Origin: a virus
Strand: one strand, 5' to 3'
DNA: 64,000 nucleotides
Virus record (IMG/VR): IMGVR_UViG_3300037011_000606
Location: 31,098 to 95,097 of that record
Positions 72 through 45,900 of this stretch are shown here, one piece after another (the stretch's first letter is position 1; each line of letters starts with the position of its first letter). A model generated the notes under the pieces. It had not been told where the DNA came from. It saw only the letters and a program-made list of their open reading frames with translations, and did no database searches. The translations under genes and the position numbers were made by a program.

Positions 72-226
72 GTTCGGCGAACCTAGTCCAAAGCTGTATG
101 GGCTGCCCATACTTCTATGTGGATATGATAGTTGCATCTAATTTCACGGCTATACCTTACTGCCACTTACCCATCGGTACAATGTGTCCGAAGGTCACTC
201 TCATATATAAGGAGGATGGAATATGA
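68..226 (+). CDS. small Cys-rich protein (52 aa), not in ORF track
   Basis: MSSANLVQSCMGCPYF...PYCHLPIGTMCPKV...; ATGA overlaps with both neighbours. Confidence 0.6.
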   Translation: MSSANLVQSCMGCPYFYVDMIVASNFTAIPYCHLPIGTMCPKVTLIYKEDGI

Positions 227-939
227 AACCAAAGAGCAAGATAAGCAGTGCAATATGTCTTATATCTGGTGGGCTGGATTCCGCGACCGTTTTAGGGATA
301 CTGTTAGAACAAGGGTACAAGGTCTACCCGCGGACTTTCGATTACGGCCAGCTTCACAAGAGAGAGATTCAAAGTGCAAAGAACATAGTATCATACTACA
401 AAGACAAGTATCCTGGTCACCTGTTGCCTGTGGGGGTAGTAGAGCTGGGCGTCCTCAAGACGATCGGCGGATCGGCGCTCACTAACCACAACATAACCGT
501 CCCTACCCAAAGAGACAATAGCGAGATGTCTTCCCATATTCCAGTGACCTACGTCCCAGGACGCAACACCATCCTATTATCCATAGCATTGTCCATCGCC
601 GAAACAGTAGACGCTGACCTTGTGGGCATAGGTGTTAACCATCTCGACTACTCCGGCTACCCAGACTGTCGCCCAGAGTATATAGAAGCGTTTAACAACT
701 TAGCTAGACTGTCGAGCAAGCGCGCTGTAGAAGGTCATCCAATTAGAATCTACGCACCCTTACTCAAGCTCACAAAATCCGAAATTATAAAAAGGGGCAC
801 GGAGATCGGAGTTCCTTACCACCTGACGTGGTCCTGTTATCAGGGAGGAGGTAAACCCTGTGGAGTGTGCGACTCCTGTATACTCCGTGCCCAGGGCTTC
901 AAAGAGGCAGGACTTGAAGACCCCGCAATTCGACCTTAA
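223..939 (+). CDS. queC: 7-cyano-7-deazaguanine (preQ0) synthase QueC
   Basis: SGGLDS PP-loop, FDYGQ, TYVPGRN, DYSGYPDCRPEY, TWSCY and CGVCDSC Zn site; AAGGAGG RBS. Confidence 0.97.
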   Translation: MKPKSKISSAICLISGGLDSATVLGILLEQGYKVYPRTFDYGQLHKREIQSAKNIVSYYKDKYPGHLLPVGVVELGVLKTIGGSALTNHNITVPTQRDNSEMSSHIPVTYVPGRNTILLSIALSIAETVDADLVGIGVNHLDYSGYPDCRPEYIEAFNNLARLSSKRAVEGHPIRIYAPLLKLTKSEIIKRGTEIGVPYHLTWSCYQGGGKPCGVCDSCILRAQGFKEAGLEDPAIRP

Positions 940-995
940 ACCAGTGAAACATACCAAACTTCCATCCCTCTTCGGTTTGTACTATCGGGCCTAAC

Positions 996-1274
996 TCATC
1001 CGCCATTTATCGTGCGGGCAAGTTCTTCAGGTGTTGGGGGTTCATCAACATACTCCCAATACCTTCCATATGCGGTATGTGGCGGATTCTTATGACTAAC
1101 GCTGTTAGCTCGTTCAATCTGGCGACCGAACGAATCAGTCTTTGCTAAGTCCAAACTAACATATACCAGATTAATACAAGCAAATCTATCGTCACCATGA
1201 ACCGCTGTAACGATAGCATTATTGCTCTTACTATATTCATCCACATATATTACCGCATCTCCGATTTTTGGCAT
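996..1274 (-). CDS. hypothetical protein, last gene of the late operon
   Basis: ORF; GGAGGTGG RBS before ATG at 1274 (MPKIGDAVIY...). Confidence 0.7.
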   Translation of the reverse strand: MPKIGDAVIYVDEYSKSNNAIVTAVHGDDRFACINLVYVSLDLAKTDSFGRQIERANSVSHKNPPHTAYGRYWEYVDEPPTPEELARTINGG

Positions 1275-1300
1275 GTTCCACCTCCTGTCCATTAAGGACC

Positions 1301-2416
1301 TTAAACCGGCGTCAACGTCAATGCCACATTAGCCACGCTACCAGAGGCCTTCTCCGCGACCCCCATAGCTATGTTCGACGTACCAGTGGGTGGACTCACT
1401 ATCCCAATCTTCAAATTAGTGATATCCACCATCCACCCACCACTAACCCCATCGGTCTCTTCAGCATCATAGATACTATCTATGACCTTCATATACAATA
1501 CATCATCTCCAGCAGACAAACTGTTCAAATACGCTACTATCGAACTCTTTATCAAGTTCGCTGCATCTGCAGGTACTCCTGAATTTACAGTCACCGTCAA
1601 TAGAACATATACCACTACGCCAGATACTCCATACCAAGTGACCGCAATCCCCGCGGGCCTAACATCATCGATCGCATCATCTACAACAGTATCCGGAGGA
1701 GTCTTCCCATCTATATAGGCTGTAACTGTGTGCAAAGTAGTATTCTCAGTTACCACACATCCCAATACTCCCACCACATCTAATATGGCTGCCCTTATCG
1801 CAGCTAACGTTCCGCCTGCAGTCTCTGTCAATCTATTCTTAGCTCTAATCCTATACGCTCCATCCTCTTCAATATCCTCGCCATCTTCAGCTGCAGCGAT
1901 ATTCGTTATGCTATTCACCCCAACAATGGGCACCTTAACCACGGTAATAGTCCCTGCTCCCACATTGCCAAACTCCCCATATACTGTGCAGGTACAATCA
2001 ATATCTATATACCCCCCTCCAGGTATTATTCCGCCATCATCCGTGGTAAACATCACTGGATCATCGCCAGATGTCTGAACTACAGTATCCTCAGGTATAC
2101 TTGTTGCAGCAACTCCAGTGAATCTGACAACTACTGTTGCCACAGCGGCTGGGTGTCTAGTCACTCCTAGCAAAGCGCAAACACTATCGAGTGAGTTCCC
2201 TGTGGCGAAGTCCACATACCCATTATAATAGATAGCTTCAGCCATCTCCCATAGTTCCGCTTCTTCCAAAGCCTGAACTTCTAATAGCTTGAGCAAAGGC
2301 GAGGTCTCAGTCAAATCAACACTACTTCCAAAAAGCTCCATGGCTCTATTCTTCTTATCATTCAAAATCGCATCGTACGGTTTCGGATTAAAACCAGTCT
2401 GCACTATTCCATACAT
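1301..2416 (-). CDS. baseplate J-like wedge protein
   Basis: ATGNSLD..LLGVTRHPA, GEFGNVGAGTI, GEDIEEDGAYRIR, VRPAGI motifs. Confidence 0.92.
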   Translation of the reverse strand: MYGIVQTGFNPKPYDAILNDKKNRAMELFGSSVDLTETSPLLKLLEVQALEEAELWEMAEAIYYNGYVDFATGNSLDSVCALLGVTRHPAAVATVVVRFTGVAATSIPEDTVVQTSGDDPVMFTTDDGGIIPGGGYIDIDCTCTVYGEFGNVGAGTITVVKVPIVGVNSITNIAAAEDGEDIEEDGAYRIRAKNRLTETAGGTLAAIRAAILDVVGVLGCVVTENTTLHTVTAYIDGKTPPDTVVDDAIDDVRPAGIAVTWYGVSGVVVYVLLTVTVNSGVPADAANLIKSSIVAYLNSLSAGDDVLYMKVIDSIYDAEETDGVSGGWMVDITNLKIGIVSPPTGTSNIAMGVAEKASGSVANVALTLTPV

Positions 2417-43812: not shown

Positions 43813-44510
43813 AGAAAGCTATGAACCTCAAAGATTGGGGGGCGACCTTTCTTTCTATGAGCATCGCGGATTGGGAGCTGGCCGTTATTTTTATACGTGC
43901 CCTAATAGTAATTATAATATATATAAATGTTTAATTAAGTATTATTATTTAATTATATGTAGAGAGTATAATTAATATAATATTATAATAATAATAATAT
44001 AGTAATGGGTAATAGATATAATAGAATAGTATATGTAGAGAGGTGTTGTGAGTAGTAATTATATAATAGGTTAGTTATATGATATAGTAGATAGTTGTTA
44101 ATATTATTAGTTTAAGAGAAGAGGTGGTGGTGTTGTTTAGATGGGTTTAGTTGTTGAAGATAGGTTAATGTTATAATGGGTTAGTTGTTAGTATTAATTG
44201 TTTAGAGTAAGAGTTTATAATATATGTTAGTTGTTATAATATAGTAGTGTTGGTAATGTATATAGGTATAGTTGGGTATTTGTATGTTGTAGAGGTTGAA
44301 GAGAATGTTGAGAGTGGTTAGTAGTATGTAGTTATAATTTTTTGAAGTTTGGGATTGGAGATATGATTATAGTTTTTTAAGTATATGATTATAGATTTTT
44401 GGATAGGTAGTTATTGTTATTGGTGGTGGAGGTTATTGTTAAGGGGGAGAGAGAGGAGAGTGTTTGTGAAGTTGGTTATGTATAGTAGATGGGTTTGGAT
44501 GTTTGTTTGG

Positions 44511-44890
44511 AATTTATTTTTAATATATAAAATTAATTTTTTAATTTAGATAAAAATAATATTATATATTAAAAATAAATTGGTTAAAATAATTAATTAT
44601 TTATTGGTTAAATTTTTTTAATATTTAAATATTTTTATAATTTATTATAAAATTGGTGATTTATAAAAATAATTAAATATTAATATTTGTTAGTTGTAGA
44701 TTGGTTATTGGTGAGTAATAAAAATTTTTGTGAAAATAATTAATTATTTTAAAGGTTAGATGGTTTAATTTGGTAAATGTGTTAGAATTGTTTAGAGTTT
44801 AAAATTGGTTAAATATAGAAAATTATATTGGTGAGAATTGTAGATGGAGTTGGATAAATTTTTATTTTAATTTTATGAAAATAAAAATTT
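44511..44890. repeat. very AT-rich segment with repeated ATTGGT(T/G)A motifs and A/T palindromes (candidate origin or early promoter array)
   Basis: ATTGGTTA/ATTGGTGA at ~44579, 44603, 44652, 44700, 44707, 44804, 44827; palindromes at 44587-44602 and 44733-44750. Confidence 0.6.
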
Positions 44891-44901
44891 AGGTGATTGA
44901 T

Positions 44902-45699
44902 ATGTGTATGAATATGAAGGATGGAGAGATGTGTATGAAGGTTGAATGTAATAATGAGATTGTGGATAAGGTAAGAGATTTGATAGTTGGGTTTGAGATT
45001 AGGAAGGATGAAGAAAGGATTGAGATGGATAGGAATAATAATGATAGTTTGAGAATGTGGAAGGAGAAGAGGAAGAATGAGATGTTATTGGTTAAGTATG
45101 GTAAGGTGATTAATGAGGTAAGGAAGAATTTGAGGATTGTTGAAGAGTTGGGGGTTGTTAAGGGGAATGGTTGGGAATTTTGGAAGAATGAGGTGAGTGG
45201 TGGGAGAGAGATTGAGATTGTGAGTTTTGGGAATAAGGTTAAGGAAGTTGTTGAAGGTTATAAGGTGATAGTTGAGAGAAAGAATGTTTGTGAGAATTGT
45301 GGATTGAGTGTATGTAGATTGGATTGGGTGATGGATGAGAAGATGGTTAAGAAGAGTGGAAGAGGATTTGTTGGAAAGATGTTGGTTGGGAATTGTGGGT
45401 TGAAGTGGAATTGTGAGTTGAAGAATGATGAGTTTGGTGTTGATGTTGTTGAGGGTGTATTGGAAGGAGTTTGGAGTGAGGTTATAGATGGAGATAGGAT
45501 GGAAAGGAAAGTTGAGAGTGATTTGAGATATGAGAATTTTGTTAAGGATTGGAATAATGGAGTGTTTTTGAGAAAGTGGAAAGTTAATAAGATGAGAGAG
45601 TTGGATGAGAAGGTAAAGAATAAGGGAAGGTTGATTGTTGAGAGATTGAATAGGATGTTGAATGAGAAGAAGGTAGTTGATGGAGTGGTGATAGAGTGA
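44902..45699 (+). CDS. first early gene; 265-aa protein encoded without cytosine
   Basis: AGGTGA RBS at 44891; uninterrupted ORF; no A, P, T, Q or H residues; CENC..C motif. Confidence 0.85.
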   Translation: MCMNMKDGEMCMKVECNNEIVDKVRDLIVGFEIRKDEERIEMDRNNNDSLRMWKEKRKNEMLLVKYGKVINEVRKNLRIVEELGVVKGNGWEFWKNEVSGGREIEIVSFGNKVKEVVEGYKVIVERKNVCENCGLSVCRLDWVMDEKMVKKSGRGFVGKMLVGNCGLKWNCELKNDEFGVDVVEGVLEGVWSEVIDGDRMERKVESDLRYENFVKDWNNGVFLRKWKVNKMRELDEKVKNKGRLIVERLNRMLNEKKVVDGVVIE

Positions 45700-45780
45700 T
45701 TATATTTTTTAAAGATTTGAGATTTTTGTTTATGTTATTGAGAATGAATGGGTTTGGATTTTGAATGGTTTTTGTTGGTG

Positions 45781-45900
45781 ATGGTGATGGATTGGGATGT
45801 TGTTATGGATAGGATGGTTAAATATAAGGACGTTGATAAGGATATTATAAGGAGATGGGATTTTAAAGTAATGGTTAGAATGTTAGGTGAGGTGATTTGA
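45781..45900 (+). CDS. small early protein (39 aa, one C)
   Basis: MVMDWDVVMDRMVKYKDVDKDIIRRWDFKVMVRMLGEVI; GGTG RBS. Confidence 0.5.
   Translation: MVMDWDVVMDRMVKYKDVDKDIIRRWDFKVMVRMLGEVI

What the first reader, a model, noticed from the sequence alone, without database searches (positions are those of the whole stretch)
223..45830. Candidate system: 7-deazaguanine DNA modification paired with a G-free template entry zone
Established: viral QueC feeds preQ0-derived 7-deazaguanines into viral DNA, usually with FolE/QueD/QueE and a DpdA transglycosylase or polymerase. Seen: queC at 223-939; C is scarce on the sense strand in both gene orientations; depletion is absolute at the start of the early region. 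Inference: if G is hypermodified in virion DNA and hinders host RNA or DNA polymerase when on the template strand, selection would strip G from templates. The effect would be strongest for the first gene read from incoming DNA, and relaxed for late genes read from newly made DNA. One mechanism would then explain the queC gene, the skew and the C-free zone. The partner genes are not in this window, so the link is untested.
Basis: inference. Interest (0 to 1): 0.82.

Follow-up and report, generated by a model that had tools for sequence, protein, structure and literature searches.

The report
Virus early genes written without cytosine
A probable archaeal tailed virus starts its early genes with 1.9 kb of DNA that has no cytosine on the coding strand, including a 268-codon gene, and it also has the genes to put modified guanines into its DNA; a causal link between the two is plausible but not shown.

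Summary
The + strand has no C from 43903 to 45830 (1928 nt). At the early arm's 14% C, the chance of this is about 1e-126. The tract begins right after the late promoter at the late/early divergence. It covers about 1 kb of leader, a 268-aa ORF with no Ala, Pro, Thr, His or Gln, and then ORFs with 1, 3 and 4 C.

The tract is selected, not chance:
- The protein's only homolog (31% identity) uses the same 15-letter alphabet.
- A lineage with 38% TerL identity (L055) has the same architecture.
- The closest relative's contig ends at the same boundary motif.

The proposed link is only partly supported:
- At least six relatives with QueC (some also with DpdA-like) have no such tract.
- Relatives without QueC are equally skewed.
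- L055 has a tract without genome-wide skew.
- Nine published deazaguanine-gene phages, HVTV-1 included, lack tracts.

So one mechanism does not explain queC, the skew and the tract together. I still rank avoidance of modified G on the template strand first (about 0.4). Evasion of a host activity aimed at C comes second (about 0.3).

This scan has already noted C-free early genes on other DNA. I found no publication describing them.

The parts
223..939 (+). queC (7-cyano-7-deazaguanine synthase). It is the last gene of the plus-strand arm. Its composition is atypical (GC 0.48, skew about 0).
   Evidence: Pfam PF06508 6e-70. TIGR00364 201 bits, above its cut-off. The nearest named homologs are Thermoplasmata archaeon MAGs at about 60% identity. 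Skew.
43022..43864 (-). First gene of the late arm (280 aa, C-terminal CxxC pairs), probably small-terminase-like. Its TATA-like box lies about 43878-43890.
   Evidence: Homologs start the late arm in G001 (57%), G005, G007 and G008. It is related to the 161-aa gene before TerL in L055 (23% identity, E 3e-7). Sequence read.
43798..43812 (.). Poly-C(15) tract inside the 280-aa gene (it encodes GGGG). It lies 90 nt outside the zone. Its length differs by 1 nt in run X2.
43894..43907 (-). Conserved boundary motif TATTAGGG[C/A]ACGTA, read on the minus strand, where the C-free zone starts.
   Evidence: The same motif ends the 68-nt G-free run at the start of the closest relative's contig (L152/G001, TerL 78% identical).
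43903..45830 (+). Zone with no C on the + strand, so the template strand has no G. 1928 nt: A 33.5%, G 28.4%, T 38.1%.
   Evidence: Also present in the independent run X2.
43903..44892 (+). Non-coding leader or intergenic part of the zone. It holds TATA-like boxes, 90-110-nt repeats (TAGTTGTTA...) and an almost pure A+T block with inverted repeats.
   Evidence: No Rfam family matches.
44579..44834 (+). Array of seven ATTGGT[G/T]A boxes within 256 nt. This is a candidate iteron/origin or operator array.
   Evidence: Seven copies here against 12 on both strands of the rest of the 95-kb genome. AT-only inverted repeats I2, I5 and I10.
44893..45699 (+). First early ORF, 268 aa, with 0 C in 807 nt. 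The protein has no A, P, T, H or Q. It has a conserved Cys cluster (C126, C129, C134, C161 of P0126). Function unknown.
   Evidence: The only homolog, P0127 (245 aa, 31% identity, E 6e-7 library-wide), also lacks A, P, T, H and Q. No Pfam or PHROG hit. The AF2 model is unusable (pLDDT 36).
45748..46238 (+). Three small ORFs (50, 46 and 52 aa) with 1, 3 and 4 C. This is the transition. The next ORFs have 14-22 C each.

Best explanation
The zone is a bootstrap cassette. The first early transcription unit of a probable Thermoplasmata-infecting tailed virus is written with A, G and T only.

Shown:
- The virus encodes the full GTP-to-preQ0 route and a TGT-fold DpdA-like enzyme.
- The zone starts immediately after the divergent late promoter.
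- It is absolute for about 1.9 kb and relaxes over the next 0.5 kb.
- It is kept by selection.

Inferred:
- Virion DNA carries 7-substituted 7-deazaguanines on both strands, so the strand that host RNA polymerase copies from the incoming genome carries no modified G within the zone.
- Each modified G on the template slows or stalls the host RNA polymerase, or exposes it to termination.
- The genes that must be expressed before anything else have therefore lost every template G.
- Later genes are read after the first products act, or from newly replicated and not yet modified DNA, so they keep only the milder family-wide bias.
- The 268-aa Zn-cluster protein would be the first factor made.

The genome-wide skew is not explained by this mechanism.
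For: - A deazaguanine system is present in the same genome. It comprises QueC, QueD, QueE and FolE2 and a DpdA-like gene of 261 aa. That gene has an LDNGAYE motif, and its model's Foldseek list is dominated by tRNA-guanine transglycosylases, with DpdA 7ui4 at rank 5. It sits next to PolB, as in G004 and G018.
- The G-free strand is the template of the first early unit.
- The same position-dependent pattern occurs in two lineages. This window has 0, 1, 3, 4, then 20, 14, 22 C per ORF. L055 has 0, 0, 0, 0, 10, 1, 4, then 34-116.
- Selection is shown by P0127 keeping the 15-letter alphabet at 31% identity.
- DpdA-type modification is described as post-replicative (PMC10516641).
- 7-vinyl- and 7-ethynyl-7-deazaG templates nearly abolish bacterial RNAP transcription (PMC4838386).
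- G005 and G008, which have QueC, show raised early-arm skew of 0.5-0.63.
- Lead only, not tested here: earlier notes of this scan report C-free early genes in unrelated DpdA3-type phages, and a G-poor early gene in a C-modifying phage.
Against: - Nine relatives with QueC have no C- or G-free run of 124 nt or more. G005, G004 and G018 also have the DpdA-like gene.
- G007 and G018 are barely skewed.
- Nine published records with preQ0-pathway genes (eight with queC; HVTV-1 found via QueE) have no comparable tract: CP20, CJLB-13, phi47:1, ValKK3, Iggy, Seurat, JenK1, Brownie5 and the archaeal HVTV-1. CJLB-13 has one A-rich 140-nt run.
- In this TerL family QueC is common (5 of 7 complete genomes, this one included). 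Its presence here is therefore weak evidence.
- The modification is not demonstrated. Its type and density are unknown, and DpdA4-type modification was 30% in the one virus measured.
- In PMC4838386 the block was at initiation, with no short transcripts, and 7-deazaG and 7-methyl-7-deazaG were tolerated.
Confidence: 0.4

Rival explanations
1. What is avoided is C itself, in the nascent RNA or on the exposed non-template strand. A host activity aimed at cytosine would cost something per C. Candidates are a C-dependent endoribonuclease or toxin, a chain-terminating CTP analogue of the viperin type, an RNA or ssDNA cytidine deaminase, or heat deamination followed by uracil stalling of archaeal PolB. 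The first genes are C-free, and one of their products then disarms the activity.
For: - Sense-strand C depletion is family-wide and independent of QueC. G020 and G015 lack QueC, QueD, QueE, FolE2 and the DpdA-like gene yet are skewed 0.15-0.4. L114 reaches 0.7-0.9 over late genes.
- The patchy distribution of zones fits host-specific pressure.
- The virus carries its own family-4 UDG and a dUTPase-like gene, so uracil in DNA matters to it.
- The per-nucleotide, position-dependent pattern fits this as well as it fits the template reading.
- An earlier follow-up of this scan on other DNA favoured this reading (e1-5632909; not tested here).
Against: - No C-directed system or counter-system was identified in the genome. 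The early proteins have no family matches.
- The host genome is unknown.
- Rho-type C-rich loading does not apply to archaea, whose aCPSF1/FttA route reads U-rich RNA (PMC13675443), and the zone is 38% T.
- The virus has no RNA polymerase of its own, so a CTP analogue would also hit host transcription.
Confidence: 0.3
2. The zone is a leading-region shield against nucleases. A strand with no C cannot hold any recognition site that has both G and C on one strand. The first DNA to enter, and the first gene, which may be an anti-restriction protein, would then be safe in any host. This would resemble T7 gene 0.3 and the T5 first-step-transfer region.
For: - The zone includes about 1 kb of non-coding DNA and sits at one defined place next to the packaging genes.
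- All G/C-containing palindromes are excluded by construction.
- The first products are small proteins of unknown function, as anti-defence genes often are.
Against: - Selection against sites cannot hold every single C at zero over 1928 nt. Most single C's would create no site.
- It does not predict that the sense strand, rather than either strand, loses C in both lineages.
- Which end enters first is unknown. Contig 8 of run X2 bridges the boundary.
- The virus already has a DNA-modification system of a kind known to block restriction.
Confidence: 0.08
3. The cause is a replication or structural role, or mutation pressure. One version: the ATTGGTKA array and A+T block are the origin, and G-rich, C-free transcripts form stable R-loops that prime replication. 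Another version: recurrent transcription-associated C-to-U deamination on the single-stranded non-template strand drove the region into a C-free absorbing state.
For: - Iteron-like array and AT-only inverted repeats in the divergent intergenic region.
- The zone has a T excess relative to the A-rich early arm, as C-to-T replacement would leave.
Against: - L055 has almost no non-coding leader, yet its first four genes have 0 C.
- An R-loop does not need absolute absence of C or C-free coding genes.
- Neutral drift cannot remove five amino acids from a protein family and keep them out at 31% identity.
Confidence: 0.1

Closest known systems
Viral 7-deazaguanine DNA modification systems: preQ0 pathway plus DpdA transglycosylase (Hutinet et al. 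2019, PMC6884629; 2023, PMC10516641)
   Same: FolE-type cyclohydrolase, QueD, QueE, QueC and a TGT-fold enzyme are clustered with the replication genes. The set recurs in relatives.
   Different: - None of the papers I read describes a template strand free of G.
- The DpdA-like protein matches no Pfam, NCBIfam or PHROG TGT model and does not match HVTV-1.
- A Gpt-like PRTase sits inside the operon.
- No chemistry has been measured.
Synthetic G-less / C-less cassettes for in vitro transcription (own knowledge)
   Same: A transcription unit whose RNA lacks one nucleotide entirely.
   Different: The synthetic cassettes are non-coding laboratory constructs of a few hundred nt. This one is natural, 1.9 kb long, and encodes a 268-aa protein limited to 15 amino acids.
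Szybalski's transcription-direction rule / purine loading of mRNA-synonymous strands (own knowledge)
   Same: G>C on the sense strand of both arms, and A>T on the early arm.
   Different: Purine loading is a mild statistical bias. Here C is exactly 0 for 1928 nt, T exceeds A inside the zone, and L055 has a zone without any genome-wide bias.
Restriction-site-poor leading regions with a first-expressed anti-restriction gene: T7 gene 0.3, T5 first-step transfer (own knowledge)
   Same: A special stretch at the start of the early genes whose composition seems tuned to survive the first minutes of infection.
   Different: Those regions avoid particular sites, not a whole letter. Entry polarity of this virus is unknown.
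Rho-avoiding C-poor, G-rich sense strands in bacteria (rut sites are C-rich/G-poor; PMC13675443)
   Same: A C-free RNA could not load Rho.
   Different: The host is most likely an archaeon. Archaea lack Rho, and their FttA/aCPSF1 route recognises U-rich RNA.

Membership tests
Viral 7-deazaguanine DNA modification system (Dpd-type) | Complete GTP-to-preQ0 pathway (FolE or FolE2, QueD, QueE, QueC) | tested here: met
   - FolE2: PF02649, 3e-76.
- QueD: PF01242, 2e-25.
- QueE: radical SAM, with TIGR04349 at 7e-43 (below its curated cut-off).
- QueC: PF06508, 6e-70.

Viral 7-deazaguanine DNA modification system (Dpd-type) | DpdA-family DNA guanine transglycosylase, the signature protein according to PMC10516641 | tested here: inconclusive
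   - Candidate: genome 18545-19330 (261 aa).
- No sequence-family hit, and the profile search against PDB found nothing.
- AF2 model: pLDDT 67, pTM 0.72. Foldseek hits are mostly TGT (TMq 0.52-0.59), with DpdA 7ui4 at rank 5. Other TIM barrels score alike.
- The LDNGAYE motif resembles TGT's DSGGFQ (own knowledge).
- Synteny with PolB and the PRTase holds in G004 and G018.
Viral 7-deazaguanine DNA modification system (Dpd-type) | 7-deazaguanine derivative actually present in virion DNA | not testable with these tools
   This needs LC-MS/MS or raw nanopore/SMRT signal. Only assembled contigs of metagenomes were available.
DpdA4 subfamily (archaeal viruses, HVTV-1 type) | Detectable sequence similarity to the HVTV-1 enzyme | tested here: not met
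   A six-frame search of the whole HVTV-1 record with the 261-aa protein found no match at E <= 0.01.
Purine loading / transcription-direction skew | Moderate excess of G over C and A over T on sense strands across the genome | tested here: met
   Met for the genome at large. The zone itself (skew 1.0, T>A) lies far outside this kind.
Site-depleted leading region (T7/T5 type) | The region is the first DNA to enter the cell | not testable with these tools
   The assembly is circular with a 125-bp overlap. No raw reads were available to map the ends.
Rho-evading C-poor transcripts | Host has Rho | tested here: not met
   The host signal is archaeal. The TerL family has a match in a Thermoplasmata MAG. 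The nearest named QueC homologs are Thermoplasmata. The UDG is of archaeal family-4 type.

The most novel reading that the evidence does not exclude
A general rule of viral genome writing: viruses that hypermodify one base purge that base from the template strand of the very first transcription unit. They accept a 15-amino-acid alphabet for their first proteins. The reason is that host RNA polymerase cannot efficiently read the modified base on incoming DNA. The missing letter would then predict which base a virus modifies, in archaeal and bacterial viruses alike.
Probability: 0.3. Interest if true: 0.9.

Novelty: categorically new. Interest (0 to 1): 0.78.

Why it matters
- A natural 1.9-kb transcription unit that uses three letters, with functional proteins built from 15 amino acids and kept so over deep divergence, is a new kind of genome constraint. 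It bears on minimal alphabets.
- If the cause is the modified guanine, it would show that DNA hypermodification has a transcriptional cost, and that viruses pay it by recoding.
- It would give a sequence-only predictor of base modification and of the first-expressed genes.
- If the cause is a host activity aimed at cytosine, it points to an undescribed archaeal defence and to its inhibitor among the C-free proteins.
- Either way the first ORFs are prime candidates for host-takeover or anti-defence functions.

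Tried and rejected
The 2.1-kb contig of P0127 and the contigs of P0002-P0005 could not be fetched.
- Searches in viral contigs with the 268-aa protein, with its alignment to P0127, with the 280-aa protein and with TerL alone found nothing.
- The 2286-aa protein was a poor anchor. It is a mobile fibre-like module, and L003-L006 are not syntenic upstream of it.
- The AF2 model of the 268-aa protein was unusable (pLDDT 36), so it was not fold-searched. 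Atlas hits of 0.83 or less to transketolase fragments are at noise level.
- No Pfam or PHROG family matches the zone ORF. No Pfam family matches eight of ten other early-arm proteins tested; the other two had only sub-threshold hits.
- No Rfam family and no tRNA was found in the window.
- The sigma-70 promoter scan of the zone was at shuffle level.
- No RNA holder was listed among the sequencing runs. The runs laid were contigs only, so no ends, strand or expression could be read.
- The 363-aa ORF (genome 16506-17597) was considered as DpdA and rejected. It has no TGT-like motifs, and its consensus looks OB-fold-like by eye.
- I could not obtain records for Flavobacterium phage immuto_2-6A, Cellulophaga phiST or Campylobacter CP220, the published complete-replacement phages. 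The scan's earlier claim about them remains untested here.
- I did not scan IMG/VR with a long no-C pattern.
- Literature searches for 'cytosine-free' with 'phage' found nothing relevant.

Full report
GENOME AND HOST

The window is bases 31098-95097 of a 95,097-bp viral contig. The contig's ends overlap by 125 bp, so it is a complete, circularly assembled genome of about 94,972 bp.

It is a myovirus-like tailed virus. It has Baseplate_J, a tail sheath, a tape-measure protein, a portal and TerL. There are two arms.
- A minus-strand late arm runs over window 1,000-43,864.
- A plus-strand arm starts at window about 43,900. It runs through the end of the contig and on to genome position about 32,000.

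The host is probably an archaeon of the Thermoplasmata.
- The only cellular genome with a TerL relative is a Thermoplasmata MAG.
- The nearest named QueC homologs, at about 60% identity, are Thermoplasmata.
- The viral UDG is of the archaeal family-4 type.

- QueC at 223-939 is secure.
- Sense-strand C depletion occurs in both orientations. It affects all three codon positions. The share of Ala+Pro+Thr+His+Gln rises along the expression order: 0 in the zone, 12% in the next 3 kb, 16% in the rest of the early arm, 19% in the middle genes and 23.5% in the late genes.
- The + strand has no C from 43903 to 45830 (1928 nt). After a single C there are 158 more C-free nt. The longest runs lacking any other letter are 71 nt or less.
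- With 28% G this is not simple AT-richness. At 14% C the chance is about 1e-126.
- An independent sediment metagenome holds the stretch with a single A>G change in the zone.

ANATOMY OF THE ZONE

The zone begins directly after the TATA-like box and BRE-like GC stretch of the first late gene. That gene is a 280-aa small-terminase-like protein at 43022-43864.

The first 990 nt hold no convincing ORF. They contain:
- TATA-like boxes;
- 90-110-nt repeats;
- an almost pure A+T block with long inverted repeats;
- seven ATTGGT[G/T]A boxes within 256 nt, against 12 in the rest of the genome on both strands.

Then comes a 268-codon ORF with no C in 807 nt, so its protein has no A, P, T, H or Q. Three small ORFs follow with 1, 3 and 4 C. 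After them C jumps to 14-22 per ORF.

THE ZONE IS SELECTED

Three results show selection.
- A search of 1.84 billion representative proteins found one real homolog of the first ORF (P0127, 245 aa, 31% identity). It also lacks A, P, T, H and Q, and it shares a Cys cluster.
- L055 is an 8.2-kb contig whose TerL is 38% identical. It has the same architecture: a TerS-like gene and TerL, and diverging from them an early arm. Its first four ORFs have 0 C, the next three have 10, 1 and 4, and the later ones 34-116. Its G-free run is 859 nt, and the 1565-nt stretch holds only 19 G.
- The closest relative is G001 (TerL 78% identical). Its contig starts with 68 G-free nt that end at the same motif, TATTAGGG[A/C]ACGTA, as the zone boundary here.

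Contigs of other relatives (L056, L057) and of run X2 also break at or inside the zone. I read this as an assembly difficulty, because one X2 contig bridges the boundary.

THE DEAZAGUANINE SYSTEM IS COMPLETE

The genes lie upstream of the window (genome coordinates).
- QueD: 27270-27770.
- QueE: 27721-28494.
- A Gpt-like phosphoribosyltransferase: 28495-28893.
- FolE2: 28890-29699.
- A family-4 UDG: 29608-30297.
- QueC: 31320-32036.

Next to them are PolB, a MazG/dUTPase_2-like protein, a ribonucleotide reductase, an HD hydrolase and a PD-(D/E)XK nuclease.

A 261-aa gene lies directly before PolB (18545-19330).
- It has an LDNGAYE motif.
- Its AF2 model is of medium quality (pLDDT 67). The Foldseek list is dominated by tRNA-guanine transglycosylases, with the DNA preQ0 insertase DpdA (7ui4) at rank 5.
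- Its homologs sit beside PolB in G004, and beside the PRTase and PolB in G018.
- It does not match HVTV-1 by sequence.

I therefore call it DpdA-like, not a member of DpdA4. This is the known kind of system described by Hutinet et al. (PMC6884629, PMC10516641). Whether and how densely the DNA is modified is unknown.

TESTING THE PROPOSED LINK

I collected 80 TerL-family loci from IMG/VR and searched 28 whole records.
- None has a C- or G-free run of 124 nt or more, apart from a 142-nt run in a 33%-GC record.
- QueC is present in nine of them, including four of six complete genomes. G004, G005, G007 and G008 also have QueD, QueE and FolE2. G004, G005 and G018 have the DpdA-like gene.
- Deazaguanine genes are therefore common in this family without any zone.

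The skew does not follow QueC either.

| Genome | QueC | Sense-strand skew |
|---|---|---|
| G007 | yes | about 0.1 |
| G018 | yes | about 0.1-0.2 |
| G005 | yes | 0.5-0.63 on the early arm |
| G008 | yes | 0.5-0.63 on the early arm |
| G020 (complete) | no | 0.3-0.4 |
| G015 (complete) | no | 0.15-0.25 |
| L114 | unknown | 0.7-0.9 over late genes |
| L055 | unknown | zone present, late genes unskewed |

queC itself is unskewed.

Nine published records with preQ0-pathway genes (eight with queC; HVTV-1 found via QueE) have no comparable tract. They include Iggy, Seurat, JenK1 and a Rosebush-type phage, two Campylobacter phages, and the archaeal virus HVTV-1, whose DNA is reported as 30% modified.

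The zone and the skew are separable, and the deazaguanine genes are not sufficient for either.

WHY I STILL RANK THE TEMPLATE READING FIRST (ABOUT 0.4)

The zone has three properties.
- It is per-nucleotide: every C is excluded, which site avoidance cannot achieve.
- It is strand-specific with respect to transcription.
- It is confined to the first 1.5-2.4 kb of the early unit in two lineages.

This fits a cost paid each time RNA polymerase meets something while making the very first messages, followed by relief. Two agents fit: a modified G on the template, or a C in the RNA or on the non-template strand.

In favour of the template reading:
- the system is present;
- DpdA acts after replication;
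- 7-substituents of vinyl or ethynyl size on 7-deazaG nearly abolish transcription by bacterial RNAP, although at initiation;
- earlier notes of this scan report C-free early genes in unrelated DpdA3-type phages and a reciprocal case in a C-modifying phage. I could not test those notes and I count them only as leads.

In favour of the C-directed rival (about 0.3):
- the QueC-independent, family-wide C depletion;
- the patchy distribution of zones;
- the virus's own uracil-repair genes.

Other readings:
- Rho avoidance is excluded for an archaeal host, because FttA/aCPSF1 reads U-rich RNA and the zone is U-rich.
- A restriction shield (0.08) and origin, R-loop or mutational readings (0.1) explain parts of the zone. 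They do not explain the absolute, coding-inclusive pattern.

NOVELTY

The deazaguanine gene set is a new member of a known kind. The C-free early unit with 15-letter proteins is, as far as I could search, undescribed in print. This scan has noted it several times on other DNA. The causal link remains a testable hypothesis.

Noticed in passing
window 44579-44834: Seven ATTGGT[G/T]A boxes lie within 256 nt, against 12 elsewhere in the 95-kb genome on both strands. They sit inside an almost pure A+T block with 19-30-nt inverted repeats. This may be a replication origin or an operator array in the divergent intergenic region.
   Followed up: partly
window 43798-43812: A poly-C(15) tract lies inside the first late gene and encodes a Gly run. 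It is one base shorter in the independent run X2. That would shift the frame if real. It could also be a homopolymer sequencing error.
   Followed up: no
window 34328-41188 and 31941-34316: The 2286-aa protein carries repeated modules of about 50 aa that it shares with the neighbouring 791-aa protein. It has low skew (0.13). Copies 70-90% identical sit in non-syntenic contigs of different GC content (L003-L006). It looks like a mobile fibre or adhesin module.
   Followed up: partly
window 1-1000 (queC): queC has GC 0.48 and no G/C skew, unlike every neighbouring gene. It is about 60% identical to Thermoplasmata QueC. This suggests a fairly recent host-derived replacement and gives a host clue.
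   Followed up: partly
genome 28495-28893 (before the window); L160:2268-2702: A Gpt-like purine phosphoribosyltransferase sits inside the preQ0 operon. In G018 it directly follows the DpdA-like gene and precedes PolB. It might make a preQ0 nucleotide, or salvage the guanine that DpdA releases.
   Followed up: partly
L114:1-7489: A distant TerL relative (24% identity, GC 0.33) has about 5% C on the sense strand over its whole 7.5 kb, late genes included (skew 0.7-0.9). This is near-total C avoidance that is not confined to early genes.
   Followed up: no
L152:1-68; starts of L056 and L057; run X2 contigs at window 44435-44495 and 44746-44930: Contigs of relatives, and contigs of an independent run, end at or inside the C-free zone. 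The zone seems hard to assemble or is under-covered.
   Followed up: no
window 50800-52300: An island of GC 0.50-0.51 with almost no skew lies inside the early arm. It contains the arm's only minus-strand ORF (51516-51926). It may be a foreign insert or a non-coding element. No Rfam family matches.
   Followed up: no
window 19776-22601: The 941-aa ORF between the portal and the head genes has the strongest skew of the late arm (0.45). It holds the genome's longest G-free runs on the + strand (65-71 nt).
   Followed up: no
window 49619-50038: This early-arm protein has weak winged-helix (TrmB / HTH_24) matches. It is a candidate archaeal-type transcription regulator.
   Followed up: no
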